DNA of 64,000 nucleotides from Planctomycetota bacterium. GTDB lineage: Bacteria > Planctomycetota > Phycisphaerae > Phycisphaerales > UBA1924. Positions 34,215 to 54,336 of this stretch are shown here, one piece after another. The notes below the pieces were generated by a model that was not told the origin of the DNA, ran no database searches, and saw nothing but the letters and a program-made list of their open reading frames with translations. Location of the stretch: NCBI GenBank assembly GCA_024275365.1, contig JAJRZG010000157.1:18-64017 (forward strand). Direction: 5' to 3'. Within the stretch, counting starts at the first letter, position 1, and each line of letters starts with the position of its first letter. The position numbers and the translations under genes were made by a program.

Positions 34215-34298
34215 CGAGTTGGGTCGTGTTGGGTCGTGTTGGGGCATTGGCTTGGCTCGCCGGTGTGCGGTTTTGCGGTTACACTACAGCCCGATGTT

Positions 34299-36753: not shown

Positions 36754-37216
36754 GCCGGGACAGATTGAGGTTGCCTTTACGCTCAACGGACGGGAGGTCG
36801 TTGTGGTTGTCGATGCTGCTGCACGGCTGCTTGACACGCTGCGGTACCAGCTTGGGTTGACGGGCACCAAGGAGGGCTGCGGCGAGGGTGAGTGCGGGGC
36901 GTGTACGGTCTGTATGAATGGCAATCCTGTCAACTCGTGCCTTGTGCCGATTTTTCAGGCTCGTGGTTGCAAGGTTGAGACTGTGGAATCTGTCGAGAAT
37001 GAGGCAGTTTTTGCGTTGCTTGGCTCTGGTGGCACACAGTGTGGTGCGTGTACGCCGGGGGTTGTGATGACGGTGTTGTGGATTGTCAAGAACCGTGATG
37101 TGCTCGAGACGCACAGCGTTCGTGAGTTGATGGCGGGGAATCTTTGTCGGTGTACGGACTACGACGGGATCATCAATGGGGTCGATCGTGCGGCTGCCAC
37201 TGGGGGTGCTGGGTGA
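36737..37216 (+). CDS. [2Fe-2S]-binding small subunit of the Mo hydroxylase
   Basis: GTKEGCGEGECGACTV (plant-type cluster) and QCGACTPG...CRCTDY (second cluster). ATG overlaps the end of the large-subunit gene. Confidence 0.85.
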   Translation: MTMPLEPGQIEVAFTLNGREVVVVVDAAARLLDTLRYQLGLTGTKEGCGEGECGACTVCMNGNPVNSCLVPIFQARGCKVETVESVENEAVFALLGSGGTQCGACTPGVVMTVLWIVKNRDVLETHSVRELMAGNLCRCTDYDGIINGVDRAAATGGAG

Positions 37217-37224
37217 GGGTGGTC

Positions 37225-38064
37225 ATGCCGACAACTCTTGGTGAAGCTCTCTCTGTGTTAGAAGAGTTGAAGGGTGATGCGGTCCCGATTGCGGGTGGGA
37301 CCGACCTCATGGTGAGTTGGCCGGAGCGGTTTATCGAGCATGAACGGACATACCTTGATCTCTCCGGTCTCGATGAGCTGCGAGCACACCGGTGGACGGA
37401 GGATGCACTTGAGATCGGGGCTTTGACGACATTTTGGGATATTGTGCGAGATCCACAGGCTGCTCGCGAAATGCCGATTCTGGTCGATGCGGCGCGGACG
37501 GTTGGTGCTGTGCAGATTCAATCCCGGGGTACTTGGGCTGGGAATATCGCCAATGCCTCGCCCGCAGCCGACGGTGTGCTTTCGATGATGGCTCTGGATG
37601 CGGTCGTCGAGCTTGCGGGGGCTGAGGGGGTTGAGGAAGTCCACCTTGATGAGCTTTATCTTGGGTACAAGCAGATGAGGAAGCGGGCGGATCAGCTGAT
37701 TACTCGGGTTCGGATCCCTCGGCGAACACTTGAGTTTCAGTCGTTTGTGAAGGTTGGTTCTCGGCGAGCGCAGGCGATCACCAAGATCGGGCTTGCCATC
37801 ACACGGTCGGATGCGGGTTGGCGTGTTGTTGCCAGCAGCATGGCACCGACGGTCAAGCGCTGCTGTGCGATCGAACGGATGCTCGATGACCGGGTGCCTG
37901 TTGATGGTCCGGGCGGGTTTGCGGCTGCTATTGGGTCGGATGTATCGCCGATCGATGACATCCGGACCACGGCTGTGTACCGCGAATCGGTCATGGCACG
38001 GGTGCTCTTTCATGAGCTTGCCCGGGTGTGCCCCTGGATATGCGCGGGGGGTGACTCGGTATGA
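37225..38064 (+). CDS. FAD-binding (CoxM/XdhB/YgfM-like) medium subunit
   Basis: AVPIAGGTDLMV, RTVGAVQIQSRGTWAGNIANASPAAD, C-terminal CO-dehydrogenase-flavoprotein-like domain (DDIRTTAVYR). Confidence 0.8.
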   Translation: MPTTLGEALSVLEELKGDAVPIAGGTDLMVSWPERFIEHERTYLDLSGLDELRAHRWTEDALEIGALTTFWDIVRDPQAAREMPILVDAARTVGAVQIQSRGTWAGNIANASPAADGVLSMMALDAVVELAGAEGVEEVHLDELYLGYKQMRKRADQLITRVRIPRRTLEFQSFVKVGSRRAQAITKIGLAITRSDAGWRVVASSMAPTVKRCCAIERMLDDRVPVDGPGGFAAAIGSDVSPIDDIRTTAVYRESVMARVLFHELARVCPWICAGGDSV

Positions 38065-38082
38065 CGAACTTCGTGACTGATT

Positions 38083-39270
38083 GTGTGTGTGGTGTACGGG
38101 CGTGTGTCGGAGCTGCCGAGCTCTGCTGGCACTTGTGAGCTTTGTCGAGATCCGTTCGCGGTGCTGGATATTCGGTATGACATGGACGCAGTTGGCTCGA
38201 GCATGACGCGGAGTGCTCTTGCGGGGAGGGCGTTGCATCATTGGCGGTTTCATGAGTTGCTGCCGATTGAACCGGACAGTGCGGCGTTTGCGTGGCCTGT
38301 CGGGTGTACGCCGATCATCGAGGCGGCACGGTTGGCTTCGTGGGCTGGTGTCTCGCGGCTTCGGCTCAAGGATGACTCGCGGAACCCGACAGCGAGCTTT
38401 AAGGACCGCGCATCGAGCGTAGGGGTGCTCCATGCGTTGCAGCAAGGCGCGGGCACGATCGCCTGCGCTTCGACGGGGAATGCGGCATCAAGTCTTGCCG
38501 GGTTTGGCGCGATGGGGGGGTTGCCTGCTGTGATCTTTGTGCCAGAGCGTGCGCCGGAGCCGAAGGTTGCCCAACTCCTGATGTTTGGTGCCGATGTTCG
38601 GCGTGTGCGGGGCAACTATGCGCAGGCGTATGACCTCTGCACCGCCGAGTGCGATCGGTACGGGTGGTACAACCGCAACTGTGCGATCAACCCCTTCTTG
38701 ATCGAGGGCAAGAAGACCTGTGGGCTTGAGATTGCAGAGCAGACCGGGTGTGACCTGCCTGAGTGGGTGGTTGTTTCTGTGGGGGATGGCTGCACGATTG
38801 CGGGCATTGTCAAGGGGCTTGTGCAGATGCAGGAACTCGGTTTTGTTGACCGCGTGCCTCGGGTGCTTGGCGTGCAGGCATCGGGGATGGCCCCGATCGC
38901 AGAAGCCTTTAAGACGGGTGATTTGCCGCGAGAGTATGAGGGAAAGACCTTTGCAGATAGCATCGATGTCCCGGTCCCACGGAACTGGCGGAAGGCGGTT
39001 GCTGCGGTTGGTGAGACTGACGGGGCGTATGTCTGTGTCAGCGATGCGCAGATCATGGAGGCGATGAAGAGTGCGGGGGCTCTTGCGGGTGTTTTTGCTG
39101 AGCCGGCTGCGGCTGCGGCTGTCGCGGGTGTCAAGCAGGCGGTCGCTGAGGGGATATTTGATGAGCGGAGTGATGCGCTTGCGGTGATCACGGGTAGCGG
39201 GCTCAAAGATATTGCCTCGGTGATACGGATCGTAGACGAGCCTGCTGAAGTGGACCCGTTGGAATCCTGA
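38083..39270 (+). CDS. threonine-synthase-like fold-type-II PLP enzyme with N-terminal Cys-rich segment
   Basis: RLKDDSRNPTASFKDRASSVGV (PLP-lysine motif of the ThrC family), glycine-rich PLP phosphate loop region. Only GTG 38083, inside a (TG)5 tract, is available as a start. Confidence 0.75.
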   Translation: MCVVYGRVSELPSSAGTCELCRDPFAVLDIRYDMDAVGSSMTRSALAGRALHHWRFHELLPIEPDSAAFAWPVGCTPIIEAARLASWAGVSRLRLKDDSRNPTASFKDRASSVGVLHALQQGAGTIACASTGNAASSLAGFGAMGGLPAVIFVPERAPEPKVAQLLMFGADVRRVRGNYAQAYDLCTAECDRYGWYNRNCAINPFLIEGKKTCGLEIAEQTGCDLPEWVVVSVGDGCTIAGIVKGLVQMQELGFVDRVPRVLGVQASGMAPIAEAFKTGDLPREYEGKTFADSIDVPVPRNWRKAVAAVGETDGAYVCVSDAQIMEAMKSAGALAGVFAEPAAAAAVAGVKQAVAEGIFDERSDALAVITGSGLKDIASVIRIVDEPAEVDPLES

Positions 39271-39344
39271 TGGCCTTCTGCGATCATGGCTGCAACCGGA
39301 AGACGCGGTTCTTGCTATGATGAGGGGTTGCTGCTGCTCATGGA

Positions 39345-40841
39345 GTGGCGCAGCGCATGGAGCGTAGAATCAATATGACACAATCGGCGGGTACAACTGG
39401 AAGAGATGAGGTGCTTGAGCGGGCTGTGCAGCGTTGCCGAGAGCGGGGTGTAGTTATCCCGACATTTGCGCAGATGCGGGACCCGTCGCGTGTGCCGGGG
39501 GCGGTCCGAGAGCGCCTCAAAGGTGTTGGGCTTTGGGATATTGACCCAGTCAACCTGTTCCGGATCAGCTGGAAGAACGAGCCTGTCGAGAGCGGGGGGC
39601 TGTATAACAGCGGAAACTGGGTTGAGTTTCCTTCATCGCTCACTGGTGTCTCTGCAAGGATTGTCGGGCTCGCTGGTAAGTGGTTTCCTACGGGGACGCA
39701 TAAGGTTGGCGCGGGGTTTGGGTGCCTGGTGCCCCGTCTTGTGCGGGGCGAGTTTGACCCGACAGCACACAAGGCGGTGTGGCCATCGACCGGGAACTTT
39801 TGTCGTGGCGGAGCGTTTGATTGTGCGCTGCTTGGATGTGAGGCGGTTGCGATTCTGCCCGAGGGCATGAGCCGCGAGCGGTTTGATTGGCTTGGAGACA
39901 TCGGGGCCGAGATCATTGCGACCCCTGGGTGTGAGTCGAATGTGAAAGAGATTTATGACAAGTGCTGGGAGATTCGGCGGACCCGGCCGGACTGCATCAT
40001 CTTCAACCAGTTTGAGGAGTTTGGGAACTCGGTCTGGCACTATCATGTGACGGGGTCTGCGATCCAAGATGTCTTTATGCAGATCGCTGGCCCGGGTGAT
40101 CGGCTTGCTGCGTGGGTCTCTGCGACGGGATCTGCTGGGACAATCGCGGCTGGTGACTTTCTTAAGACGGTCCATCCCGGCGTTCGTGTCGCTGCTGTCG
40201 AGGCGCTCCAGTGCCCGACGCTACTTAATAACGGTTTCGGAGACCACCGGATCGAGGGCATCGGCGATAAGCATGTGCCGTGGATCCACAATGTCCGTAA
40301 CACTGATATCGTCTGTGCGATCGACGACGCGCAGTGCCTCGCGCTGATGCGGCTGTTTCATGAGCCTGAAGGTGTGATGCTTCTTTGTGAACTGGGTGTT
40401 GGCACGGAAACTCTCGATCAACTCTCTCTGCTTTGGATATCTTCAATCTGCAATCTTGTTGCGGCTATTAAGGTTTCGCGTCTCGAAGAGTTGAGTGCAA
40501 GGGATATTGTCTTTGTGCCTCTGACCGACTCGATGGATTTGTACTCGAGCCGTCTCGTGGAAGAACGCGAGCGAGAAGGTGCGTATGACCGGACGACCGC
40601 AGCCCGGCACGCGGGGCGGTATCTTGAGGCGATTGTAACTGACAACATGCGTGTGCTTGATCTTGCTGCCCGCAAGGCTCTGCACAACCTCAAATACTTT
40701 ACATGGGTCGAGCAGCAGGGTCGGTCGGTTGATGATCTTCGTCGCCTCTGGGACCCTGATTTCTGGTCCGAGGTGTATACGCAGGCCGACACTTGGGATA
40801 TGGAAATCGAGGAGTTTAATAGGCGTGTCGCGTGCACATAG
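39345..40841 (+). CDS. fold-type-II (TrpB/CysK-like) PLP-dependent enzyme; possibly of the 'PLP-dependent lyase/thiolase' (OrtB-like) type
   Basis: GKWFPTGTHKVGAGFG carries the PLP-lysine context (TGxHK as in TrpB). About 490 aa, longer than CysK/TrpB. The OrtB-like assignment is from memory and untested. Start uncertain (GTG 39345, ATG 39357 or ATG 39375). Confidence 0.65.
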   Translation: MAQRMERRINMTQSAGTTGRDEVLERAVQRCRERGVVIPTFAQMRDPSRVPGAVRERLKGVGLWDIDPVNLFRISWKNEPVESGGLYNSGNWVEFPSSLTGVSARIVGLAGKWFPTGTHKVGAGFGCLVPRLVRGEFDPTAHKAVWPSTGNFCRGGAFDCALLGCEAVAILPEGMSRERFDWLGDIGAEIIATPGCESNVKEIYDKCWEIRRTRPDCIIFNQFEEFGNSVWHYHVTGSAIQDVFMQIAGPGDRLAAWVSATGSAGTIAAGDFLKTVHPGVRVAAVEALQCPTLLNNGFGDHRIEGIGDKHVPWIHNVRNTDIVCAIDDAQCLALMRLFHEPEGVMLLCELGVGTETLDQLSLLWISSICNLVAAIKVSRLEELSARDIVFVPLTDSMDLYSSRLVEEREREGAYDRTTAARHAGRYLEAIVTDNMRVLDLAARKALHNLKYFTWVEQQGRSVDDLRRLWDPDFWSEVYTQADTWDMEIEEFNRRVACT

Positions 40842-40874
40842 GCAAGGCGATAGCATTTGGTAGTGAAAGAGCGA

Positions 40875-43445
40875 ATGATCAAACTCACACTCAACGGCGA
40901 TCAGAAACAGTTTCACGGCGACCCGGACTCGTCTCTCCTGAAGTATCTGCGTGTCGAGCAGCGGGTGGTCTCGGTCAAGGACGGTTGCTCGCCGCAGGGG
41001 GCGTGCGGGTGCTGCGCTGTTGAACTCAACGGCAAGGTCGTGCTCTCGTGCGTCATCCCGATGAAGAAGGCAGCTGATGGCAAGGTCAGGACGCTCGACG
41101 GGCTCGATGACTGGACGCGAACGGTGCTTGCGGATGCCTTTGCACAGTGTGGGGGAGCCCAGTGTGCGTTTTGTATTCCGGGCATTGCAATGCGGGCTCA
41201 GAATCTGCTTTCGTCAAACCCTGAGCCAAGTGATGATGAGATTCGGAAGTCTCTCAATCAGCACCTCTGCCGATGTACCGGGTATCAGAAGATTATCGAG
41301 TCTATTAGGGTTGCTGGTGATTCGCTACGAACGGGCGAGCCGGTCCCCCATCACGCGAGAGCATCTGGGGTTGGGACCCGGCGGCGGAAATACAAGATCG
41401 AGGATGCGGTGCTTGGGGATCGTCCTTATGTTGCTGACCTTGAAGTTGAGCGTATGCTGCATGGTGCGTTGCGTCTGAGTGATCATCCTCGGGCTCGGTT
41501 GGCGTCGATTGATACGAGCAAAGCGCTGGCGATCAAGGGTGTGCACCGGGTATTTCTTGCTGATGATGTCCCAGGGCAGCGATCGGTGGGGCTGATTGTC
41601 CCGGACTGGCCGCTCCTGGTTGCTGCGGGAGAGGTGACCAGGTATGTGGGCGATGTGATCGCCTGCGTTGCTGCCGACTCTCGGCATATCGCGGTATTGG
41701 CGGCTCAAGCAATAGAGGTCGAGTATGAGGTGCTTGAGCCGGTGACAGATATGTTTGAGGCGATCAAGCCGGGCTGTGCGAAGGTCCATAACAGTGGGAA
41801 TATCCTTGGTGTCTCACGGGCTAAGCGGGGCGATGTTGATGAGGCATTTGCGAAGTGCGCCTTTATTTCCGAACACACCTATGAAACCCAACGCATCGAG
41901 CATGGGTATCTTGAGCCCGAGGCCTGCTTGGTAGAGCCCCGCGAGGGCGGCATTAAGGCTTACTCCCAGAGTCAGGGGGTCTATGAAGACCGTCGGCAGC
42001 TTGCCCTGCTGCTCGGGCTCGATCAGACGCAGGTTGATGTCGAGCTTGTGCCCAACGGTGGCGGATTTGGGGGCAAGGAAGACCTGTGTACGCAGGGGCA
42101 CGCTGCGCTGATGGCGTATTTGCTGCAACGCCCGGTCATGCTTGAGATCTCGCGGGATGAATCGATCCGGATGCACCCCAAACGCCATCCGATCCATATG
42201 GAATATAAGCTCGGGTGCTCGTCTGACGGCAAACTGCTTGCGCTTCGCGCACGCATGCATGGCGACACCGGCGCGTACGCCTCGGTTGGCATGAAGGTGC
42301 TCGAGCGGGCGTGCGGGCACGCGACGGGTGCATATTATGTTCCTCATGTCGATATCGAAGCGACTGCTGTGTATACCAACAATGTCCCGTGCGGTGCGAT
42401 GCGGGGCTTTGGTGCCAATCAGGCGAACTTCGCTCTGGAGTGCGCGGTTGATGAGCTCTGCGAGACTGGGGGGTTTGACCGCTGGCAGTTCCGCTATGAC
42501 AATGCACTGACCGAGGGACGCAGCACTGCGACCGGGCAGGTGCTCGCGTCAGGAGTGGGTGTTCGCGCGACGCTTGAGGCAGTGAAGGAGCAGTTCGAGT
42601 GCGCACGGTATGCGGGGATTGCCTGTGGCCTGAAGAATACCGGGATCGGCAATGGCATGCCCGACTCGGGAACTGTCCGGCTTCTCATAAAGGCACCAGA
42701 CCACATAGAGCTGCACCACGGCTGGACCGAAATGGGCCAGGGTGTACACACTGTTGCTGTTCAGTCGTTTTGTGAAGAAACCGGACTTCCAGCGGATATT
42801 GTGACGGTGCATGTTGAGACATCTCACGAGACACCCTGCGGGATGACGACCGCCTCGCGCGCGACCAGCCTTGTTGGGAATGCCATTATCGAGGGGTGTA
42901 AGCAGCTCTGCGAAGACCTCAAGACACACGCGCTTTCCGATCTTGTCGGGCGAGAGTACTTTGGCGAATGGGTGTGCGCCTGGACGAACAAGCCCGGCAA
43001 GACTGACGGTGGACCGGTGTGTACGCACTATTCGTACAGCTATGCGACGCAGGTTGTTGTGCTCAATGATGATGGATCGATCGACCGGGTAGTTGCGGCA
43101 CACGACGCAGGACGGGTCATCAACCCAACACTATTTGAGGGACAGATCGAGGGATCGGTGCATATGGGGCTCGGCTATGCCCTGACTGAATCGCTGGTCA
43201 TGGAGGGTGGCCGGTTTCAGTCAACCCGTCTCCGGAAGTGTGGGATCCTCCGTGCCCGGGACATGCCTGCAGTTGAAGTTATAGCTGTCGAAGTGCCCGA
43301 TGAGTTTGGGCCGTATGGCGCAAAGGGTGTTGGTGAGATCGGCCTAGTGCCGACAGCCCCTGCGGTTTCCAATGCGTTGTATATGTACGATAAGATCCGT
43401 CGTCGAACCCTGCCAATGAAGCCCGTCACTACCCCAACGCCCTGA
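40875..43445 (+). CDS. fused [2Fe-2S] + molybdopterin-binding hydroxylase (XdhD / 'selenium-dependent molybdenum hydroxylase'-like architecture)
   Basis: N-terminus KDGCSPQGACGCCAV and QCAFCIPG...CRCTGYQKI (two 2Fe-2S sites) fused to an XDH-family Mo domain (GGGFGGKED, AMRGFGANQ, TEMGQGV, GAKGVGEIG). ATG 40875 (MIKLTLNG) is preferred over TTG 40857. Confidence 0.8.
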   Translation: MIKLTLNGDQKQFHGDPDSSLLKYLRVEQRVVSVKDGCSPQGACGCCAVELNGKVVLSCVIPMKKAADGKVRTLDGLDDWTRTVLADAFAQCGGAQCAFCIPGIAMRAQNLLSSNPEPSDDEIRKSLNQHLCRCTGYQKIIESIRVAGDSLRTGEPVPHHARASGVGTRRRKYKIEDAVLGDRPYVADLEVERMLHGALRLSDHPRARLASIDTSKALAIKGVHRVFLADDVPGQRSVGLIVPDWPLLVAAGEVTRYVGDVIACVAADSRHIAVLAAQAIEVEYEVLEPVTDMFEAIKPGCAKVHNSGNILGVSRAKRGDVDEAFAKCAFISEHTYETQRIEHGYLEPEACLVEPREGGIKAYSQSQGVYEDRRQLALLLGLDQTQVDVELVPNGGGFGGKEDLCTQGHAALMAYLLQRPVMLEISRDESIRMHPKRHPIHMEYKLGCSSDGKLLALRARMHGDTGAYASVGMKVLERACGHATGAYYVPHVDIEATAVYTNNVPCGAMRGFGANQANFALECAVDELCETGGFDRWQFRYDNALTEGRSTATGQVLASGVGVRATLEAVKEQFECARYAGIACGLKNTGIGNGMPDSGTVRLLIKAPDHIELHHGWTEMGQGVHTVAVQSFCEETGLPADIVTVHVETSHETPCGMTTASRATSLVGNAIIEGCKQLCEDLKTHALSDLVGREYFGEWVCAWTNKPGKTDGGPVCTHYSYSYATQVVVLNDDGSIDRVVAAHDAGRVINPTLFEGQIEGSVHMGLGYALTESLVMEGGRFQSTRLRKCGILRARDMPAVEVIAVEVPDEFGPYGAKGVGEIGLVPTAPAVSNALYMYDKIRRRTLPMKPVTTPTP

Positions 43446-43460
43446 TCGGAGCACAACCGA

Positions 43461-44717
43461 GTGGCACTCTATCTTTCGAACGCCGAGTTCCTTGATTGGA
43501 AGACTCATGAGATCACGCGTACTGCGATACGCGTTCATGAGGGGGTCGATGCTGGCATTGATCTACTTGATAAGGTTCCGGATGGGGAGCCCTCACTCGA
43601 CTGCTCGGGCCGGATTGTCACCAAGAGCTTTGTGGTCGGGCATCACCATATCTACTCGGCCCTTGCGCGAGGCATGCCACAGCCTGCTGTCGGCCCGACG
43701 AGCTTTGTCGAGATTCTTGAGAATATATGGTGGCGGCTTGACAAGGCTCTTGATGCTGACATGATCCGCGCATCCGCTCTTGTTGCCGGGATCGATGCAG
43801 CCCTCGCTGGCACGACCTTTATTATCGACCACCATGCGTCCCCAAATGCTGCATGTAACTCGTTGCACATTATCGCTGAGGCTCTCGATTCGGTCGGCCT
43901 GTCGCACTTGCTCTGCTATGAACTCTCCGATCGCGACGGCTCTGAACGCCTTGAGCAGGGCATCGCTGAGACTGATGCGTATCTTCGATCGCATCAGGGC
44001 CTCGTTGGGCTTCATGCTTCGTTCACCGTGAGTGATGATCTCCTGTCACGCGCAATGGAGATGGCACGCCTGCACGAGACCGGTTTTCATGTGCATGTTG
44101 CAGAAGCTGCGTCGGATCAGGAGGATTGCCTTGCAAAGCACTCGAAGCGGTGCGTGCAGAGGTTTGCTGATGTTGGCGCACTCGAGCTGCCTCAGACTAT
44201 TCTTGCACATTGCATACACTTGGACAATGAGGAACGCCGTCTGATAGGTGAGTCGGAGGCGTGGGTTGCGCAGCAGTCTGAGAGTAACCAGAACAACGCT
44301 GTGGGGACACTTGATGCCCGCGCCTTTGCTGATCGTGTCTTCATTGGCACAGATGGGATGCACGGCGATGCGCTCGCAGCTACTCGGGCGACCTACCTTG
44401 CAAGCCAGAGCGTCGAAGGGTTGTCTCCACACGATGCGTGCGAGCGTTTGCGTTGTGTTCATAGATACCTTGACCAGAATAACTTTCGCGGAGATGGTGA
44501 AAACAACCTTGTGCTCTTGGACTATCACCCACCGACACCAGTTACGCCAGCAAACTGGGCTTCGCATGTTATGTATGGACTCAACCGGAGTCATATTGAA
44601 ACAGTTATCAGTGACGGGAGGGTCATCGTGCAGAATCGACGATGCACGCTGCTTGATGAGGATTCGGTTCTTGCTGAGGCGCAACACCAGGCGAAACGGC
44701 TATGGGACAAACTCTGA
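43461..44717 (+). CDS. ssnA: SsnA-like amidohydrolase (metal-dependent hydrolase superfamily)
   Basis: FVVGHHHIYSALARGMP (HxH metal motif in the SsnA-typical ...YSALARGM context), HVHVAE, IGTDGMHGD. About 418 aa, as for E. coli SsnA. Confidence 0.75.
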   Translation: MALYLSNAEFLDWKTHEITRTAIRVHEGVDAGIDLLDKVPDGEPSLDCSGRIVTKSFVVGHHHIYSALARGMPQPAVGPTSFVEILENIWWRLDKALDADMIRASALVAGIDAALAGTTFIIDHHASPNAACNSLHIIAEALDSVGLSHLLCYELSDRDGSERLEQGIAETDAYLRSHQGLVGLHASFTVSDDLLSRAMEMARLHETGFHVHVAEAASDQEDCLAKHSKRCVQRFADVGALELPQTILAHCIHLDNEERRLIGESEAWVAQQSESNQNNAVGTLDARAFADRVFIGTDGMHGDALAATRATYLASQSVEGLSPHDACERLRCVHRYLDQNNFRGDGENNLVLLDYHPPTPVTPANWASHVMYGLNRSHIETVISDGRVIVQNRRCTLLDEDSVLAEAQHQAKRLWDKL

Positions 44718-45976
44718 TGGAACTGCGGATCAATAGCGAGCGACTCCAGGAGTCATTGGCTGAACTTGGACAGATCGGGACTATTCAATCAGAATACCCG
44801 GGCATATCTGGTGTCTGCCGCCTGGCTCTTTCTGAGGAGGACGCCGACGCCCGTCGTTTGGTCATCGGCTGGATGAAGCGTGAGAACCTCGAAGTCAGTA
44901 TTGATCAGATCGGGAATATCTATGCTACCGGGCCGGGGCGTGACAATACTCTCGCGCCCATAATGTCTGGCTCTCACCTCGACTCTGTTCCCACTGGTGG
45001 CCGATTTGATGGTGCTCTTGGTGTTCTTGGGGCGATTGAAGTTGTGCGTACTCTTAATGACCATAATATTGTCACCCGCCGTCCGCTGACGATCGCTGTG
45101 TTTACTGATGAGGAGGGGTGCCGTTTTGCAACAGATATGCTTGGAAGTGCTGTCGCGACCGGACGGATCCAACTTGCAGATGCGTGGCGTTTGTGCGATA
45201 CCGATGACATCTCTGTCAAGAGTGAGCTTGAGCGGACGGGTTTTCTCGGCGATGAGCAGGTCGGGCAACGCAGGCCTCATGCATTCATCGAGTGTCATGT
45301 CGAGCAGGGGCCGGTGTTGAGGCACGAGGGTTACGATCTTGGTGTTGTAACTGGTGTGCAGGGCATTTCCTGGCAACGACTGACCATCATCGGGAGCCCG
45401 GCGCACGCGGGGACGACACCGACTGGGTTTCGCCGTGATGCGGGGCTCACTGCAGCGAAGATCAACATTCGCATACGCGAGATGTGTCTCTCTGGGAACT
45501 ACGGGAGTGACATGCGTGCGACGATGGGTGTTGTCCGCCCTGAGCCCGGGTCTATCAATGTCATCCCTGGCCGGGTTGTTGCAACTGTCGATCTCCGCAA
45601 CCCGGTCGATGATGCGATGCTGGCTGCCGAAGCCGATCTGCGTGAGTTTCTGAAAGAGATTGCCGATATCGATGGTGTTACGATCGAATCAGAGCAGACT
45701 GCTCGCACACCGGCGGTTTCTTTCAACACAGCAACGCAAGCGACAATCGCCAGCGTTGCTGATACTCTTTCGCTCAGGCATCGTCCGATCCTTGCAGGTG
45801 CTGGTCACGATGCTCAGGAGTGGTCGCGTGTGTGCCCAACTGCCATGATCTTTGTGCCGGGTGAGAATGACGGGATAAGCCACAACGCTATGGAGTTCTC
45901 CACGCCCGAGCAGTGCGCAAACGGGATCAATGTCTTGCTTAATACTATCTTTACTCTCGCGGAAGAGTCGTCATGA
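44717..45976 (+). CDS. M20-family N-carbamoyl-amino-acid / allantoate-type amidohydrolase
   Basis: MSGSHLDSVPTGGRFDGALGVLGAIEV, FTDEEG, IECHVEQGPVL, GAGHDAQ. ATG 44717 overlaps the ssnA stop (TGATG). Alternative ATG at 44702. Confidence 0.8.
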   Translation: MELRINSERLQESLAELGQIGTIQSEYPGISGVCRLALSEEDADARRLVIGWMKRENLEVSIDQIGNIYATGPGRDNTLAPIMSGSHLDSVPTGGRFDGALGVLGAIEVVRTLNDHNIVTRRPLTIAVFTDEEGCRFATDMLGSAVATGRIQLADAWRLCDTDDISVKSELERTGFLGDEQVGQRRPHAFIECHVEQGPVLRHEGYDLGVVTGVQGISWQRLTIIGSPAHAGTTPTGFRRDAGLTAAKINIRIREMCLSGNYGSDMRATMGVVRPEPGSINVIPGRVVATVDLRNPVDDAMLAAEADLREFLKEIADIDGVTIESEQTARTPAVSFNTATQATIASVADTLSLRHRPILAGAGHDAQEWSRVCPTAMIFVPGENDGISHNAMEFSTPEQCANGINVLLNTIFTLAEESS

Positions 45977-46905
45977 ACACAGTGCGCGTCGCCATGACGC
46001 AGACTCTCAATGCATTCCGTGATATGCCTGATTCGCTCGATGGCATTGCATCACTTGCGGACAGGCTCGATGACATCCGCAGTGCAAATGTGCGACACAA
46101 TCTTGATCTTCTCATGCGGGCAGGAAGTTCGGGCATCCAGGCTGTGTGTCTGGGCGAGCTCTTTACCGCACCGTACTTTGCGTTGACGCGGGATGACCTT
46201 TGGTTTTCGCTTGCTGAAGATGCTGCCACTGGCCCGACTATTTCGGAGATATCGGAAGCCGCCGCTCGATTGGGCATCGTTGTCGTCGCGCCGATCTATG
46301 AATGCGAGATGGAGACCGGAAGGCGGTTCAACACTGCGGTTGTTATCGACGCTGACGGCACGGTGTTGGGCAAGTACCGCAAGGTTCATATCCCTGTGGG
46401 CGGGAATGAGCAGGCGTGTTTCGATGAGCGGTACTATTATGAGCCGTCACGAGTTCCGCAGAATGAACCTTCACCGAGTATCCTCGGTGACAATCCGTAC
46501 TTCCCGGTTTTCAAGACTGCTGTTGGGAATATTGGTGTTTCGATTTGTTATGATCGACACTTTGAGGGTGTGACTCGTTCTCTGCACCACGCGGGCGCAC
46601 AGATTATCTTCTCTCCAGCGGTTACATTTGGCGCAAAGTCGAAGCGGATGTGGGAGATAGAGTTTGAGGTTGATGCTGCCCGGCATGGGTTGTATCTCGG
46701 CGGCTCGAACCGCCTCGGGGCCGAGAAGCCCTGGAATCAACCGTACTTTGGCCGGAGTTCTTTCTTCGGGCCTGATGGGCGGGTTGCAAATATCAGTGAA
46801 GACCCGTGCCTTGCGATTGCGGAGTGTGATCTCGATGTATTGGAGAAGCCGGATGATTCTGGCTGGGACCTTTCACGCGATGCTCGCCCATCGGTCTACA
46901 GTTGA
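45973..46905 (+). CDS. carbon-nitrogen hydrolase (beta-ureidopropionase / N-carbamoyl amidase-like)
   Basis: Catalytic triad contexts CLGELF (Glu), YRKVHIP (Lys), VSICYDRHF (Cys). ATGA overlap with the upstream stop. Confidence 0.8.
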   Translation: MNTVRVAMTQTLNAFRDMPDSLDGIASLADRLDDIRSANVRHNLDLLMRAGSSGIQAVCLGELFTAPYFALTRDDLWFSLAEDAATGPTISEISEAAARLGIVVVAPIYECEMETGRRFNTAVVIDADGTVLGKYRKVHIPVGGNEQACFDERYYYEPSRVPQNEPSPSILGDNPYFPVFKTAVGNIGVSICYDRHFEGVTRSLHHAGAQIIFSPAVTFGAKSKRMWEIEFEVDAARHGLYLGGSNRLGAEKPWNQPYFGRSSFFGPDGRVANISEDPCLAIAECDLDVLEKPDDSGWDLSRDARPSVYS

Positions 46906-46919
46906 CCACTCGTCAGTGG

Positions 46920-48953
46920 CTATGCATTGATGTAGTTCAGGGGGGCATCAGCCCCGAAGATCGCTTTGCACAGTTCATTCATAATAAAGAAATATGTGAG
47001 ATCGACCTGTGTATTTGCTTCACCCATGATCGTACTCGCAGGATCATCGCGTGCAAAGCGGACCTCAAAGTCATCGCCTGAATACAGGGCTTTGTCTCCG
47101 TCTATCTTAGTTCGATACTCTTGAGAATCGAACCTCCCGTAGACCGCCTGCTTATCCTGGCTCTGTTCCAGATAGAAGCCATCGAGTGATGTGGCGGCAG
47201 CCCAGTCGTCGAGTGAACCGAAGAACCGGGGCTTGATGACATATGGCCCACCGTCCTCGGGGCAGAAGACATCACAGTTTCCGCAGTCGTTACAGAAGTC
47301 ATGGAAGTTTGCGATCTGGTGTTTTTGGTTGAGTGTGAATGAGCCAGTATCGTCTACGGCCCACACGCCGTCACGCTTTGACATTTTGCACACCGGGATA
47401 TCGACAGGGGGTATCGTGAGGGCAAAGTTTGCATCATTGGGACATACGGGGATGCACTTGTCGCAGGTGATGCAGTTGAAGAGTTTGAGTGTGCTCCCGA
47501 TTTTTATTGGGAGCTTGTTGTTGTCCTGCTGATAGCGGTCGGTTGTGGTTGCGGAATCGGCGTAGTGCTCGGTGTTGAGGAGCTTTGCAGCACTAAGCCA
47601 CTGAGCAGCGAGATCACGATCCACCAGGTGCAAAAGCGGATCACCACTCGCTTCAGCAGCCGTGAACGCTTCTGTCCACTGGGCACCGGCTTGTTCGAGG
47701 GCTGCCCTTGCGAGGCCATATGCTCTCAATGTGAACTCGTCTATATTTGAGGCGTGTACAGCATCCATGCGTTTGATGAGCGTCTGGAAATAGCCGAGTT
47801 GCCTGGCGTAGCCGCCGGGTCGCAGGAGGTCGGTACAGACCGTCACCGGCACCAGGCCGAGCGCAACAGCGTCGGCAAAGTTTCGCCTATCAATCCCAGC
47901 AGAAAAGGATATGGGGTATCGGTCGCCACACACCCGTCGGAACTCACGGACGAGGTTGATCGCAAGCACATGCAGCGGCTGTCCCGAGAGGTACATCAGC
48001 CTTTCCGCACTCGGGAAGAACTCACGGTTGTTCTCAACGATGAGCGTGTTGGTGAACTTTACCCCGAGCCCAAGGCCCAACCCGTCGGCTGTTGTGCCGA
48101 GCCGATCGACAAACCCGAGCATCTGTTCCCACTTTGTATCTTTCTCGAACGACTCGTCCGGGGTCAGGGCATTGGTATACCCAAGCGTGTCGCGCATCAA
48201 CTCACGAAGGCGTTCTGCCCCGAGCAGCGTCGGGTTGAGCTTGATCGTGCAGTGGAGCCCCAACTCCCGCAGCAAGAATTCGATGATCTTCTCGATCTCA
48301 TCGGGCGGGCACCCATGAAAGGTGCTCAGGGTGAGCGTGTTTGAGAGCTTTGTACGGAAGTCCAGGTCGCGGTACTCTGCGAACTCCGGTGGGATTTCAT
48401 TTCGCAGGCGATCCACGATCGGCGTTGCGTCCATCATCCCGTCCAGAAACGCCCGCACACGGTCGGACTGAATCCCGGCGAGGTCATACCCGACACTCAA
48501 GTCAAAGATCATGCGCTCGAACCCGGGGACAATGTCGATTTGGCCGCTGGCGGTGAGGATGTCGATCAGCATCGAAGCTTTGACATACTCCTCGAGTGAC
48601 TGCTCGATCTTGAGTTCCTGAGACCACTCGATGTTGTAGCAGACTGTCTGGGCGTCGATGCAAGGCCTGCCGATCTCCAGCTCATCGAGAATCTGGACGG
48701 TCTTGAGCTCGATGATTCTTGACCCACCAAGCCACGAGAGCACGATATTTTGCGCAAGCTGGGAGTGAGGACCAGCCGATGGGCCGAGCGGTGTTGCGGC
48801 GAGGATGCCGTGGAAGCGTACCGACAGATCGTGATCGGGATCACCCGGAAAGAACTTGGTTCTTGGGAGATCGAAGATGGTGTGTTGGCGGTCGAGTTCG
48901 CGGAGCATTCTCGAGAGCATGCGTGCGAATGGGTATGGTGTGAGTGCTGTCAT
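46920..48953 (-). CDS. YgfK-like protein: DHOD/DPD-like barrel plus C-terminal 2x[4Fe-4S], lacking the GltD-like FAD/NAD(P)H module
   Basis: ATPLGPSAGPHSQLAQNIVLSWLGGSRIIELKTVQILDELEIGRPCIDA...NIEWSQE...LSTFHGCPPDEIEKI...KLNPTLLG...TDLLRPGGY tracks the E. coli YgfK N-terminal region as I recall it. C-terminus CITCDKCIPVCPNDAN ... CNDCGNCDVFCPEDGGPY. Start set at MTALTPYPF (48953; alternative 48968). The track ORF to 49256 overlaps the divergent gcdH. Confidence 0.7.
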   Translation of the reverse strand: MTALTPYPFARMLSRMLRELDRQHTIFDLPRTKFFPGDPDHDLSVRFHGILAATPLGPSAGPHSQLAQNIVLSWLGGSRIIELKTVQILDELEIGRPCIDAQTVCYNIEWSQELKIEQSLEEYVKASMLIDILTASGQIDIVPGFERMIFDLSVGYDLAGIQSDRVRAFLDGMMDATPIVDRLRNEIPPEFAEYRDLDFRTKLSNTLTLSTFHGCPPDEIEKIIEFLLRELGLHCTIKLNPTLLGAERLRELMRDTLGYTNALTPDESFEKDTKWEQMLGFVDRLGTTADGLGLGLGVKFTNTLIVENNREFFPSAERLMYLSGQPLHVLAINLVREFRRVCGDRYPISFSAGIDRRNFADAVALGLVPVTVCTDLLRPGGYARQLGYFQTLIKRMDAVHASNIDEFTLRAYGLARAALEQAGAQWTEAFTAAEASGDPLLHLVDRDLAAQWLSAAKLLNTEHYADSATTTDRYQQDNNKLPIKIGSTLKLFNCITCDKCIPVCPNDANFALTIPPVDIPVCKMSKRDGVWAVDDTGSFTLNQKHQIANFHDFCNDCGNCDVFCPEDGGPYVIKPRFFGSLDDWAAATSLDGFYLEQSQDKQAVYGRFDSQEYRTKIDGDKALYSGDDFEVRFARDDPASTIMGEANTQVDLTYFFIMNELCKAIFGADAPLNYINA

Positions 48954-50401: not shown

Positions 50402-50421
50402 CTCGGCATGTATATTCCGGT

Positions 50422-50985: not shown

Positions 50986-51112
50986 TGGATTGTCCTTTCG
51001 AGGTGAGATGCGCGATCGGGTGGATGTATTGGAAGCACCCTCAGGTCTGACATGGGTCACAGAGTTGTGGTACACAGAGTTGCTTTGCGCTCGATATGGT
51101 GTTGTTTCCGTC

Positions 51113-52658: not shown

Positions 52659-52673
52659 TGAGACCTCTTGCGA

Positions 52674-54328: not shown

Positions 54329-54336
54329 ACCTCGTT

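What the first reader, a model, noticed from the sequence alone, without database searches (positions are those of the whole stretch)
40875..48953. Variant of the xdhD-ssnA-ygfK ('selenium-dependent Mo hydroxylase') locus with a different downstream enzyme set
A fused FeS+Mo hydroxylase (XdhD-like), an SsnA-like amidohydrolase and a YgfK homologue co-occur, as in the E. coli ygfK-ssnA-ygfM-xdhD region and in clostridial anaerobic purine/urate gene clusters. However, the usual companions are not in this window: hydantoinase HyuA, carbamoyltransferase YgeW, carbamate kinase YqeA, diaminopropionate ammonia-lyase YgeX, and the YqeB/YqeC/SelD maturation genes. In their place are two decarbamoylating amidases (an M20 allantoate-amidohydrolase type and a CN-hydrolase beta-ureidopropionase type), translationally coupled to ssnA by TGATG and ATGA overlaps. 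That predicts ring opening to N-carbamoyl/ureido intermediates and hydrolytic, not phosphorolytic, decarbamoylation. This would be a different route from the described ones.
Basis: partly seen in the sequence, partly recalled or inferred. Interest (0 to 1): 0.65.

Follow-up and report, generated by a model that had tools for sequence, protein, structure and literature searches.

The report
Hydantoinase-less variant of anaerobic urate-degradation cluster
This is a purine/uric-acid breakdown operon of an uncultured Planctomycetota-like bacterium that keeps the core enzymes of the recently solved anaerobic "2,8-dioxopurine" pathway but replaces most other steps with different enzymes, a variant conserved in many environmental bacteria and apparently not yet described.

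Summary
At 40875-48953 there is a fused 2Fe-2S/Mo hydroxylase, an SsnA-like amidohydrolase, an M20 carbamoylase and a CN-hydrolase joined by TGATG/ATGA overlaps, and a convergent YgfK homologue. The window has no hyuA, ygeW, yqeA, ygeY, ygeX, yqeB or yqeC.

- The unit starts at about 34546. It includes a three-subunit XDH and two PLP enzymes (ThrC-like, CysK-like) that take YgeX's place in related loci.
- The hydroxylase belongs to the TIGR03311 family, not the XdhD family.
- The YgfK homologue lacks the whole NAD(P)H/FAD module. It keeps a DHODH/DPD-like barrel and two 4Fe-4S motifs.

The canonical pathway was solved in 2025: urate, 2,8-dioxopurine, dihydro form, ring openings, two decarbamoylations, diaminopropionate, pyruvate. 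A hydrolytic variant (C. difficile UacY) is already known, so this is the same route with other enzymes rather than a new route.

The M20 + CN-hydrolase + short-YgfK set recurs in 19 of 80 genome loci and about 25 metagenome contigs. It never occurs with YgeW, YgeY or full-length YgfK, and occurs with HyuA only once. No gene for the hydantoin-ring opening is visible, which is the real open question.

Verdict: new variant of a known kind, moderate interest.

The parts
34546..36753 (+). Molybdopterin subunit of a three-subunit xanthine-dehydrogenase-type enzyme. The longest ORF starts at 34399, but the likely start is the ATG at 34546, preceded by GGAGG.
   Evidence: Ald_Xan_dh_C, MoCoBD_1 and MoCoBD_2. 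Best NCBIfam hits are PucD and XdhA, 440 and 397 bits, both below cut-off. 30% identical to E. coli XdhA. Start codon. A tRNA-Ser ends at 34386.
36737..37216 (+). 2Fe-2S subunit of the XDH-type enzyme. The start overlaps the end of the Mo subunit gene.
   Evidence: Fer2 and Fer2_2. XdhC/PucE models about 127 bits. 39% identical to E. coli XdhC. Start codons.
37225..38064 (+). FAD subunit of the XDH-type enzyme. The start is uncertain: 37213 or 37225.
   Evidence: FAD_binding_5 and CO_deh_flav_C. 30% identical to E. coli XdhB.
38083..39270 (+). Threonine-synthase-like PLP enzyme (fold type II), linked to the pathway. Proposed stand-in for diaminopropionate ammonia-lyase YgeX.
   Evidence: PALP 232 bits. 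TIGR00260 189 bits against a cut-off of 167. PDB threonine synthases at 1e-53. Present next to SeXDH-SsnA in 9 of 19 type A and 20 of 36 type B loci. Absent where YgeX is present (L037, L046, L049, L069, L072).
39357..40841 (+). CysK/CBS-like PLP enzyme of about 495 aa with N- and C-terminal extensions, linked to the pathway. The start is uncertain: 39345, 39357 or 39375.
   Evidence: PALP. CysK models about 95 bits, far below cut-off. PDB cysteine synthases at 2e-22. Found in 15 of 19 type A loci, 18 of 36 type B loci and 16 of 25 long metagenome loci. It occupies YgeX's operon position in L026 and L080.
40875..43445 (+). Fused 2Fe-2S + molybdopterin hydroxylase of the TIGR03311 family. Proposed urate to 2,8-dioxopurine reductase (DOPDH-like).
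   Evidence: TIGR03311 892.6 bits against a cut-off of 830.45. All six domains present. The Cys motifs of both 2Fe-2S clusters are intact. Adjacent to SsnA in 18 of 19 type A and 30 of 36 type B loci.
43461..44717 (+). SsnA-like amidohydrolase. Proposed to open the first ring of dihydro-2,8-dioxopurine.
   Evidence: NF005540 338 bits and TIGR03314 310 bits; these are the best families but both are below cut-off. 29% identical to E. coli SsnA. HHH and other metal-ligand columns are invariant in 21 homologues. The clade's relatives sit in canonical clusters.
44717..45976 (+). M20 hydantoinase/carbamoylase-family amidase, a decarbamoylase. Its start overlaps the ssnA stop (TGATG).
   Evidence: TIGR01879 375 bits against a cut-off of 204; NF006769 438 bits against 452. 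PDB N-carbamoyl-beta-alanine amidohydrolase 8c46 at 4e-92, also L-carbamoylases and yeast beta-alanine synthase. Overlap.
45973..46905 (+). CN-hydrolase of the beta-ureidopropionase branch, a decarbamoylase. Its start overlaps the M20 stop (ATGA).
   Evidence: CN_hydrolase 134 bits. PDB beta-ureidopropionases 2vhh at 2e-28 and 6ftq, then D-carbamoylases. E62, K137 and C192 are invariant in 16 orthologues. Orthologues at 48% identity or more sit almost only in this cluster type; more distant homologues sit next to dihydropyrimidinases.
46920..48953 (-). Short YgfK (DOPOR-like): a DHODH/DPD-type barrel plus two 4Fe-4S motifs, without the Fer4_20/Pyr_redox_2 NAD(P)H module. Convergent with the operon, 14 bp between the two stop codons.
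   Evidence: TIGR03315 matches only model positions 4-404 of 1012. 41% identical to E. coli YgfK 5-397 and 28% to 904-997. E. coli YgfK carries Fer4_20 at 453-532 and Pyr_redox_2 at 552-839; this protein does not. AF2 model pLDDT 84. Foldseek top hits are DHODH and pig DPD, probability 1.0. The CxxCxxCxxxC motifs at 494-504 and 554-564 are invariant.

Best explanation
The stretch 34546-48953 is one catabolic unit. It consists of a tightly packed ten-gene operon on the + strand and one convergent gene. It encodes an environmental variant of the anaerobic reductive uric-acid (2,8-dioxopurine) pathway.

Proposed flow:
1. The three-subunit XDH oxidises hypoxanthine or xanthine to urate.
2. The fused TIGR03311 hydroxylase removes the 6-oxo group, giving 2,8-dioxopurine.
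3. The short YgfK reduces 2,8-dioxopurine at its predicted FMN barrel. Electrons arrive through its two 4Fe-4S clusters from ferredoxin or another partner, not from NAD(P)H.
4. SsnA hydrolyses the dearomatised ring.
5. The second ring is opened by an enzyme not identifiable here.
6. The two ureido groups are removed hydrolytically, so no carbamoyl phosphate and no ATP are made. By family, the CN-hydrolase probably acts on the beta (3-) ureido group and the M20 carbamoylase on the alpha (2-) ureido group.
7. The resulting diaminopropionate is converted to pyruvate and ammonia by the ThrC-like and/or CysK-like PLP enzymes, in place of YgeX.

Shown here: gene content, family assignments, domain loss in YgfK, conserved synteny and mutual exclusivity of the gene modules. 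Inferred: every substrate assignment, the electron donor and the order of decarbamoylation.
For: Orthology by context. The SeXDH-SsnA pair of this window (46-68% identity) sits, in 36 of the 80 best genome loci, next to recognisable HyuA, YgeW, YqeA, YgeY, YgeX and full-length YgfK. The order resembles E. coli and clostridial clusters. Those enzymes have been characterised biochemically.

The alternative set is a coherent module.
- 19 of 80 genome loci carry M20 and/or the CN-hydrolase, and none of them carries HyuA, YgeW or YgeY. Short YgfK occurs only with this set (7 of 19) and full-length YgfK only with the canonical set (18 of 36).
- An independent metagenome scan seeded with the CN-hydrolase gave 25 loci of 5 kb or more. 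Among them: M20 18, short YgfK 18, SsnA 16, SeXDH 14, CysK-like 16, HyuA 1, YgeW/YgeY/full YgfK 0.
- In a neighbour-joining tree, SsnA proteins of type A loci form one clade of 29 leaves with one exception.

Other support:
- More distant CN-hydrolase homologues (30-41% identity) sit beside dihydropyrimidinases, as in pyrimidine-type beta-ureidopropionase clusters.
- YgeX and the ThrC-like gene replace each other in related loci, and the CysK-like gene occupies YgeX's slot in L026 and L080.
- The upstream XDH fits a purine substrate and recurs in L006, L007, L090, L123 and L083.
Against: - No biochemical data exist for any protein of this clade, and all relatives are uncultured MAGs.
- SsnA and the XDH subunits score below their curated NCBIfam cut-offs.
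- The regiospecificity of the fused hydroxylase (urate to 2,8-dioxopurine, or to xanthine) cannot be read from sequence. The XdhD residue E606 proposed as a determinant falls in an unalignable loop.
- Four C-N cleavages are needed to reach diaminopropionate, but only three hydrolases are encoded. No recurrent unassigned ORF exists in type A loci.
- The short YgfK is not always clustered. In Phycisphaeraceae CP060234 it lies about 700 kb from the cluster, beside a nucleoside transporter.
- No selenium-cofactor maturation genes are in the window.
- Composition shifts at about 40 kb, so part of the unit may be recently acquired, or the contig may be chimeric.
- The loci are phylogenetically related, so the counts are not independent events.
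Confidence: 0.7

Rival explanations
1. Chemically different lower pathway without a hydantoinase. The M20/CN-hydrolase pair replaces HyuA + YgeW/UacY + YgeY by other chemistry. Three versions are possible. One: an M20 'ureide' hydrolase cleaves the N-C(=O) bond inside the hydantoin ring, giving an amino-acid amide that the CN-hydrolase deamidates. Two: one hydrolase acts twice. Three: a PLP enzyme eliminates urea from 2-amino-3-ureidopropionate.
For: HyuA is present in 32 of 36 canonical loci, in 0 of 19 type A genome loci and in 1 of 25 long metagenome loci. The same holds for a second, deeper SsnA lineage ('A2' loci, SsnA 35-42% identical), so the pattern follows the M20/CN-hydrolase pair rather than one SsnA clade. 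No other recurrent ORF is present. These loci carry two PLP enzymes instead of one. M20 directly follows SsnA with a 1-nt overlap, in HyuA's usual position.
Against: By homology both enzymes are ordinary linear-ureido decarbamoylases, and no ring-opening member of either family is known to me. Type B loci that have HyuA, YgeW and YgeY also carry the same two PLP enzymes (L023, L036, L052, L070), so the PLP pair does not need a special role. Clusters in these lineages are sometimes fragmented, so hyuA may simply lie elsewhere.
Confidence: 0.25
2. Same enzyme logic but another substrate. The cluster degrades a different N-heterocycle (another oxopurine, a pyrimidine-like compound or a nicotinate-type compound), and the fused enzyme is a true selenium-dependent xanthine or purine hydroxylase rather than a urate 6-dehydroxylase.
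For: TIGR03311 is named 'selenium-dependent xanthine dehydrogenase'. A reductase with a DPD fold, an amidohydrolase and a beta-ureidopropionase-like enzyme together mirror the reductive pyrimidine pathway. Regiospecificity is untestable here.
Against: Orthologous SeXDH-SsnA pairs sit in otherwise canonical urate clusters with YgeW, YqeA, YgeY, HyuA, YgfK and YgeX. A separate conventional XDH lies in the same operon. C. sporogenes DOPDH has its Mo domains at residues 307-839, the same size and layout as this protein's 314-804.
Confidence: 0.1
3. There is no functional unit. Either the genes are adjacent by chance, or an assembly chimera joined two genomes near 40 kb.
For: GC content and GC skew drop abruptly near 40.0-40.5 kb. 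GC3 and third-position skew of ssnA, M20 and the CN-hydrolase differ strongly from the upstream genes.
Against: The same order, ThrC-like, CysK-like, SeXDH, SsnA, M20, CN-hydrolase, (short YgfK), is found on independent contigs and on a closed chromosome (L003, L006, L008, L010, L015, L089, L090, L100). The genes overlap or lie 15-74 bp apart.
Confidence: 0.04

Closest known systems
E. coli ygeW-ygeX-ygeY-hyuA-yqeA ... ygfK-ssnA-ygfM-xdhD cluster and the C. sporogenes cluster: the reductive urate / 2,8-dioxopurine pathway (bioRxiv 10.1101/2025.05.19.654654; 10.1101/2025.04.24.650524)
   Same: A fused FeS/Mo hydroxylase, an SsnA-type amidohydrolase and a YgfK-type catalytic domain occur together. 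An XDH lies nearby. The end point is probably diaminopropionate and then pyruvate through a fold-type-II PLP enzyme. Relatives of this window's SeXDH-SsnA pair sit in clusters with all the canonical genes.
   Different: There is no HyuA, YgeW, YqeA, YgeY, YgeX or YgfM. The hydroxylase is TIGR03311-type, 26% identical to XdhD. YgfK lacks Fer4_20 and Pyr_redox_2. Decarbamoylation uses a CN-hydrolase and a carbamoylase-type M20 enzyme. There are two PLP enzymes of the ThrC and CysK lineages.
C. difficile variant of the same pathway (UacX reductase without the FAD domain; UacY hydrolytic D-aminoacylase-like enzyme), described in 10.1101/2025.05.19.654654
   Same: The reductase lacks the NAD(P)H module, and a ureido group is removed hydrolytically rather than phosphorolytically.
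   Different: UacX is a PydA (PF01180) homologue, whereas this reductase is a truncated YgfK. UacY is an amidohydrolase-superfamily enzyme (PF07969), whereas this one is a CN-hydrolase. The paper assays C. difficile HyuA and uses YgeY and YgeX for the last steps; this locus has none of them.
Reductive pyrimidine pathway (PydA dihydropyrimidine dehydrogenase, PydB dihydropyrimidinase, PydC beta-ureidopropionase)
   Same: The logic is reduce, open the ring, decarbamoylate. The short YgfK model matches DHODH and DPD. The CN-hydrolase's nearest solved relatives are beta-ureidopropionases, and its more distant homologues sit beside dihydropyrimidinases.
   Different: The substrate is bicyclic and is first processed by Mo hydroxylases. 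No dihydropyrimidinase is present. The CN-hydrolase clade at 48% identity or more is confined to the purine-type clusters.
Clostridial 'xanthinase' (Rabinowitz) pathway of anaerobic purine fermentation
   Same: It is an anaerobic purine degradation pathway that begins with hydrolytic cleavage of the pyrimidine ring. From my own knowledge, it also includes hydrolytic removal of a ureido group.
   Different: From my own knowledge, that pathway needs no dearomatising reductase and no PLP lyase; it ends in glycine. The window has a YgfK-type reductase and PLP enzymes, and its relatives sit in 2,8-dioxopurine clusters. I rejected it as an explanation.
Hydantoinase/carbamoylase (Hyu) systems and allantoate amidohydrolase AllC
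   Same: The M20 enzyme passes the TIGR01879 cut-off and almost reaches an allantoate amidohydrolase subfamily model, 438 against 452 bits. 2,3-Diureidopropionate is the one-carbon homologue of allantoate (PMC12990295).
   Different: It is not accompanied by a hydantoinase or a racemase. Its context is purine-reductive rather than oxidative ureide catabolism.

Membership tests
TIGR03311 selenium-dependent xanthine dehydrogenase family (fused FeS + Mo hydroxylase) | Whole-protein score above the curated cut-off, with end-to-end coverage of the model | tested here: met
   892.6 bits against a cut-off of 830.45. Residues 10-855 match model positions 3-842 of 848.
TIGR03311 selenium-dependent xanthine dehydrogenase family (fused FeS + Mo hydroxylase) | Two 2Fe-2S domains, an a/b hammerhead domain and two MoCo-binding domains in one chain, with the cluster cysteines present | tested here: met
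   Pfam domains. The Cys motifs GCxxxxxCGxC, CxxC and CRC are present, unlike in E. coli XdhD.
TIGR03311 selenium-dependent xanthine dehydrogenase family (fused FeS + Mo hydroxylase) | Selenium-cofactor trait in the genome (SelD, YqeB, YqeC) | not testable with these tools
   YqeB and YqeC are absent from the 64-kb window. YqeB-like genes occur near some type B relatives (L052, L070). The rest of the genome is not available.
   241.8 bits against a cut-off of 1101.9. 26% identical to E. coli XdhD. No YgfM-type FAD partner lies next to it.
SsnA (TIGR03314 / NF005540) | Score above the curated cut-off | tested here: not met
   309.9 against 455.5 and 338.4 against 444 bits. These are still by far the best families; the next scores 116 bits. 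29% identical to E. coli SsnA.
SsnA (TIGR03314 / NF005540) | Genomic association with the Mo hydroxylase, YgfK and the ureide-processing genes | tested here: met
   It is adjacent to SeXDH in 48 of the 55 classified genome loci. Canonical partners are present in 36 loci.
YgfK / DOPOR (TIGR03315) | Full architecture: N-terminal catalytic domain, Fer4_20, NAD(P)H/FAD Pyr_redox_2 and C-terminal ferredoxin | tested here: not met
   Only model positions 4-404 of 1012 match; 420.6 bits against a cut-off of 835.3. E. coli residues 398-903 have no counterpart.
YgfK / DOPOR (TIGR03315) | Homologous catalytic domain with a flavin-barrel fold, plus 4Fe-4S clusters | tested here: met
   41% identity over YgfK 5-397. 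Foldseek hits DHODH and DPD at probability 1.0. Two invariant CxxCxxCxxxC motifs. FMN binding itself was not tested.
Canonical 2,8-dioxopurine pathway gene cluster | HyuA hydantoinase/dihydropyrimidinase | tested here: not met
   No tblastn hit in the window. Present in 0 of 19 type A genome loci and 1 of 25 long metagenome loci.
Canonical 2,8-dioxopurine pathway gene cluster | YgeW carbamoyltransferase with YqeA carbamate kinase (or UacY), and YgeY | tested here: not met
   No hits in the window. They never co-occur with the M20/CN-hydrolase pair. UacY was not searched, because I had no reference sequence.
Canonical 2,8-dioxopurine pathway gene cluster | YgeX diaminopropionate ammonia-lyase | tested here: not met
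   There are only weak local similarities to other PLP genes, 23-41% over short stretches. ThrC-like and CysK-like genes occupy its place.
Nitrilase-superfamily decarbamoylase (beta-ureidopropionase / carbamoylase branch) | Glu-Lys-Cys catalytic triad, with decarbamoylases as the closest relatives | tested here: met
   E62, K137 and C192 are invariant in 16 orthologues. Top PDB matches are beta-ureidopropionases, N-carbamoylputrescine amidase and D-carbamoylases. Substrate not tested.
M20 hydantoinase/carbamoylase-family amidase (TIGR01879) | Score above the curated cut-off | tested here: met
   375 bits against a cut-off of 204. PDB N-carbamoyl-beta-alanine amidohydrolase and L-carbamoylases at 1e-83 to 1e-95.

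The most novel reading that the evidence does not exclude
Environmental anaerobes (Phycisphaerae/Planctomycetota, Elusimicrobiota, Myxococcota) run a lower urate pathway that differs chemically from the gut-bacterial one. It has no cyclic amidohydrolase. The second ring is destroyed by decarbamoylase-family enzymes, for example through an amino-acid amide intermediate, and/or a ThrC/CysK-type PLP enzyme removes the last ureido group by beta-elimination. The two reductive steps are fed through FeS clusters directly from purine oxidation by the co-encoded XDH. That would make hypoxanthine to dihydro-2,8-dioxopurine redox-neutral and independent of NAD(P)H.
Probability: 0.25. Interest if true: 0.7.

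Novelty: new variant of a known kind. Interest (0 to 1): 0.5.

Why it matters
The anaerobic urate pathway was solved only in 2025, and only for gut Enterobacteria and Clostridia. This locus shows that a large, uncultured, non-gut set of bacteria keeps only the hydroxylase/SsnA/YgfK-domain core. The rest is rebuilt from other families: a truncated reductase, a CN-hydrolase, a carbamoylase-type M20 enzyme and two unrelated PLP enzymes.

Three testable questions follow:
- How is the hydantoin (or dihydrouracil) ring opened without HyuA?
- What donates electrons to a YgfK that has lost its NAD(P)H module?
- What do the ThrC-like and CysK-like enzymes do?

There are also practical consequences.
- The enzymes are currently annotated as 'threonine synthase', 'glutamate synthase', 'putative selenate reductase' or 'acyltransferase'.
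- Pfam-based neighbourhood surveys would count the M20 and PLP genes as YgeY and YgeX (Figure 3 legend), so they would not distinguish this variant.
- A compact, fully hydrolytic, NAD(P)H-independent enzyme set could interest groups engineering urate-degrading probiotics.

Tried and rejected
- Exact-sequence look-ups of the window's own YgfK-like protein found no record, so the sample of origin is unknown.
- A PDB sequence search with the short YgfK found nothing. I used structure prediction and Foldseek instead.
- I tried to read regiospecificity from the XdhD E606 position. It falls in a gapped, unalignable loop, so the result is uninformative.
- An Rfam scan found no riboswitch (purine, xanthine or Moco), only three tRNAs.
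- Promoter and terminator scans gave no more hits than shuffled sequence.
- I looked for a hidden hydantoinase among recurrent unassigned ORFs in the 19 type A loci and found none. The conserved gap gene in 'A2' metagenome loci is another PALP enzyme, not a hydrolase.
- I considered the Rabinowitz xanthinase pathway and rejected it, because the window has a reductase and PLP enzymes and its relatives sit in 2,8-dioxopurine clusters.
- The UbiX-like flavoprotein (33657-34214) is probably not part of the unit. It is separated from it by a tRNA gene and is absent from all related loci.
- The downstream benzoyl-CoA-reductase/2-hydroxyacyl-CoA-dehydratase-like cluster is also not part of the unit. 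It is not conserved next to any related locus.
- The third protein search (CN-hydrolase) was meant to find a cultured carrier for experiments. All named hits were MAGs.

Full report
**What is there**

ORF listing and profile searches show a run of + strand genes from about 34546 to 46905 and one convergent gene:
- XDH Mo subunit, 2Fe-2S subunit and FAD subunit (34546-38064)
- a threonine-synthase-like PLP enzyme (38083-39270)
- a CysK/CBS-like PLP enzyme of about 495 aa (39357-40841)
- a fused 2Fe-2S/Mo hydroxylase (40875-43445)
- an SsnA-like amidohydrolase (43461-44717)
- an M20 carbamoylase-family amidase (44717-45976)
- a CN-hydrolase (45973-46905)
- a YgfK homologue on the - strand (46920-48953)

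Gaps between genes are 15-74 bp, or the genes overlap. A tRNA-Ser gene (34298-34386) bounds the unit on the left. On the right lies an unrelated cluster of acyl-CoA dehydrogenase, hemerythrin, benzoyl-CoA-reductase/2-hydroxyacyl-CoA-dehydratase-like subunits and beta-oxidation genes. The rest of the window is housekeeping. tblastn with the E. coli proteins finds no HyuA, YgeW, YqeA, YgeY, YqeB, YqeC or MocA in the window.

**Corrections to the description**

The fused hydroxylase passes the curated cut-off of TIGR03311, 'selenium-dependent xanthine dehydrogenase' (892.6 against 830.45). It fails the XdhD-type model (242 against 1102) and is 26% identical to E. coli XdhD. C. sporogenes DOPDH, the characterised urate 6-dehydroxylase, has its Mo domains at residues 307-839. 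That matches the size and layout of this protein, whose Mo domains span 314-804.

The YgfK homologue aligns only to E. coli YgfK 5-397 (41%) and 904-997 (28%). In E. coli the missing 400-900 stretch holds Fer4_20 and Pyr_redox_2, the NAD(P)H/FAD module. An AlphaFold2 model built from 40 homologues has mean pLDDT 84. It matches dihydroorotate dehydrogenases and pig dihydropyrimidine dehydrogenase at probability 1.0. Two CxxCxxCxxxC motifs are invariant. The protein is thus the YgfK catalytic barrel plus a ferredoxin domain, without the pyridine-nucleotide entry point. This roughly 680-aa form is a large family. About 8000 proteins scored E <= 1e-10, and the top 120 are at least 56% identical. 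Sources name them 'glutamate synthase' or 'putative selenate reductase'.

**What is now known about the canonical system**

Two 2025 studies established the reductive urate / 2,8-dioxopurine pathway:
1. XdhD-YgfM or XdhAC (DOPDH) reduces urate to 2,8-dioxopurine.
2. YgfK (DOPOR) dearomatises it.
3. SsnA opens one ring, giving mainly ureidomethyl-hydantoin.
4. HyuA opens the second ring, giving 2,3-diureidopropionate.
5. YgeW (with YqeA, yielding ATP) or the hydrolytic UacY removes one ureido group, and YgeY removes the other.
6. YgeX converts diaminopropionate to pyruvate and ammonia.

Variants with an NAD(P)H-independent reductase (UacX) and with an F420-type reductase are mentioned. Neither paper's main text contains 'nitrilase', 'carbamoylase', 'Planctomyc' or 'threonine synthase'. 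Their Pfam-based neighbourhood analysis uses PF01546 for YgeY and PF00291 for YgeX, so it would lump this M20 enzyme with YgeY and these PLP enzymes with YgeX (Figure 3 legend).

**Comparative genomics**

An alignment of SsnA-like homologues was used to scan one genome per GTDB species. Of 585 confirmed matches, the best 80 loci were kept. I scored each locus by tblastn with the window's proteins and the E. coli reference set from NC_000913. Two exclusive architectures emerged.
- Type A, 19 loci (Phycisphaerales/Planctomycetota and Elusimicrobiota). The order is ThrC-like, CysK-like, SeXDH, SsnA, M20, CN-hydrolase, and in 7 of them a short YgfK on the opposite strand, exactly as in the window. 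None has HyuA, YgeW, YqeA, YgeY or full-length YgfK.
- Type B, 36 loci (Bacteroidales, Desulfobacterota, Ignavibacteria, Krumholzibacteriia and others). The same SeXDH-SsnA pair sits with HyuA (32), YgeW (24), YgeY (22), YqeA (7) and full-length YgfK (18). None has M20, the CN-hydrolase or a short YgfK.
- The remaining 25 loci carried neither module within reach.

In a neighbour-joining tree, 28 type A SsnA sequences form one clade. The single intruder is L002 (Gemmatimonadetes), which carries YgeY and YgeW. All type B sequences form the sister group.

A second, independent scan of metagenome contigs was seeded with the CN-hydrolase.
- Orthologues at 48% identity or more (52 loci, 25 of them at least 5 kb) lie with M20 (18), short YgfK (18), SsnA (16), SeXDH (14) and the CysK-like gene (16). 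HyuA appears once. YgeW, YgeY and full-length YgfK never appear.
- Homologues at 30-41% identity lie beside dihydropyrimidinase-like genes and never with purine genes. They look like pyrimidine-pathway beta-ureidopropionases.

The window's CN-hydrolase therefore belongs to a clade dedicated to this cluster, branching from beta-ureidopropionases. This agrees with its nearest solved relatives and with its invariant Glu-Lys-Cys triad. The M20 enzyme is closest to N-carbamoyl-beta-alanine amidohydrolase, L-carbamoylases and yeast beta-alanine synthase.

Other arrangements exist. An 'A2' order runs SeXDH, a more E. coli-like SsnA, CysK-like, another PALP enzyme with a Cys-rich N-terminus, CN-hydrolase, then M20 and short YgfK on the - strand. 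A Myxococcales order has XDH, short YgfK, a glyoxalase-like gene, SsnA-like, SeXDH and a 464-aa PALP gene in the CysK-like position, with no decarbamoylase nearby.

**The PLP enzymes**

YgeX and the ThrC-like gene replace each other just upstream of SeXDH (YgeX in L037, L046, L069 and L098). In L026 and L080 the CysK-like gene occupies YgeX's slot in an otherwise canonical operon: X, YgeY, YqeA, YgeW, SeXDH, SsnA, HyuA, YgfK. I infer that one or both process diaminopropionate or a beta-substituted alanine. Which one, and why two are needed, is unknown.

**Mechanism proposed**

The flow is XDH, TIGR03311 hydroxylase, short YgfK, SsnA, an unidentified second ring opening, CN-hydrolase and M20 decarbamoylation, then PLP-dependent deamination to pyruvate. 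No carbamoyl phosphate is made, so no ATP is gained at this stage. Electrons for the two reductive steps must come from something other than NAD(P)H. Hypoxanthine oxidation to urate releases four electrons, and urate to dihydro-2,8-dioxopurine consumes four. A closed electron loop through FeS proteins is therefore possible, but it is pure inference.

**The gap**

Reaching diaminopropionate requires four C-N cleavages. The cluster encodes three hydrolases, and type A loci contain no recurrent unassigned gene. HyuA is present in 32 of 36 type B loci but almost always missing from the alternative module, and this holds across two SsnA lineages. That suggests the M20/CN-hydrolase pair together covers the work of HyuA, YgeW/UacY and YgeY. 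The alternative, that hyuA is always encoded elsewhere, cannot be excluded. Clusters in these lineages do fragment: in CP060234 the short YgfK lies about 700 kb away, beside a NupC transporter.

**Caveats**
- All relatives are MAGs, and nothing has been tested biochemically.
- The locus counts are not phylogenetically independent.
- SsnA and the XDH subunits are below their curated cut-offs.
- Hydroxylase regiospecificity is unreadable from sequence.
- GC content (about 0.60 falling to 0.55) and GC skew (about +0.22 falling to +0.08) change near 40 kb. The ssnA, M20 and CN-hydrolase genes have the lowest GC3 and almost no third-position skew. This fits recent acquisition of the 40.8-49 kb module. 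In the closest relative (L085), SeXDH, SsnA, M20, CN-hydrolase and short YgfK occur without the PLP genes. A chimeric join is the other explanation, although the gene order across the break is conserved on independent contigs.

**Verdict**

It is a new variant of a pathway that is now known, not a new route as far as the evidence goes. Its most interesting aspect is the consistent lack of a hydantoinase, together with a truncated reductase and an unexplained pair of PLP enzymes.

Noticed in passing
window 49214-63955: This is a separate cluster, mostly on the - strand. It holds an acyl-CoA dehydrogenase, a hemerythrin-domain protein, three HGD-D/BcrB/C-like subunits and two BcrA/D-type activator ATPases. 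It also holds a FadB-like 821-aa fusion, a thiolase and a 1123-aa protein joining DUF2889 to an AMP-ligase. It looks like an ATP-dependent ring-reducing or dehydrating CoA-ester pathway. All benzoyl-CoA reductase scores are below cut-off.
   Followed up: partly
window ~39900-40500 (and the whole window): Composition breaks abruptly here: GC falls from about 0.60 to 0.55 and GC skew from about +0.22 to +0.08. Left of the break, third codon positions are strongly G-rich on the + strand whatever the gene's orientation (GC3 skew 0.2-0.6 in magnitude). The ssnA, M20 and CN-hydrolase genes show almost none (0.02-0.08). This suggests recent acquisition of the module, or an assembly chimera.
   Followed up: partly
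window 34298-34386 (+); also 31869-31960 (-) and 775-849 (-): A tRNA-Ser (CGA) lies immediately upstream of the XDH gene. The longest XDH ORF (start 34399) would begin 13 nt after it, but the homology-supported start is 34546. A tRNA at the edge of a catabolic cluster could mark an integration site. The other two tRNAs are Ser (GCT) and Asp (GTC).
   Followed up: no
window 38083-39270: The pathway-linked ThrC-like gene scores above the TIGR00260 threonine synthase cut-off (189 against 167 bits), so pipelines will name it threonine synthase. Its conserved position in purine clusters argues for another role.
   Followed up: partly
L082 (E. coli xdhD) versus window 40875-43445, alignment A3: In the alignment, E. 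coli XdhD lacks the cysteines of both 2Fe-2S motifs. For example it reads SVRNSDDGFGFAGSD where the window reads VKDGCSPQGACGCC, and SRDAGW where the window reads CRCTGY. The window protein keeps them all. The 'Fe-S binding' part of XdhD therefore looks degenerate.
   Followed up: no
L097, L101, L107, L109, L113, L121, L123, L142, L149 (gene between CysK-like and CN-hydrolase): A second cluster arrangement carries a different 430-490-aa PALP enzyme with an N-terminal Cys-rich segment (CxxC...C) and SHK(A/S)RH / ASCGNAALAAA motifs. tblastn with the window's ThrC-like protein does not detect it.
   Followed up: partly
L083 / L084 (Myxococcales MAGs): Here the short YgfK sits between an XDH (Mo subunit plus a fused FeS-FAD subunit) and a group of four genes: a 201-aa glyoxalase/bleomycin-resistance-fold protein, an SsnA-like gene, SeXDH and a PALP gene (464 aa, in the CysK-like position). 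No decarbamoylase lies within 10 kb.
   Followed up: no
L001 (Phycisphaeraceae CP060234.1, 2996660-3018699): In this closed genome the short YgfK lies alone next to a NupC-type nucleoside transporter, about 700 kb from the SeXDH-SsnA-M20-CN-hydrolase cluster (L006). This hints at a dispersed purine regulon.
   Followed up: no
window 33657-34214: A UbiX-like flavoprotein (PF02441) lies just upstream of the tRNA and the purine operon. It is not conserved in any related locus. It may serve a prenyl-FMN-dependent decarboxylase encoded elsewhere.
   Followed up: no
L002 (Gemmatimonadetes MAG JABDJQ010000012.1): This is the closest SsnA among GTDB representatives (68% identity). It has the window's upstream order (ThrC-like, CysK-like, SeXDH, SsnA) but is followed by YgeY-like and YgeW-like genes instead of M20 and the CN-hydrolase. 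It nests inside the type A SsnA clade, which is evidence for module swapping.
   Followed up: partly
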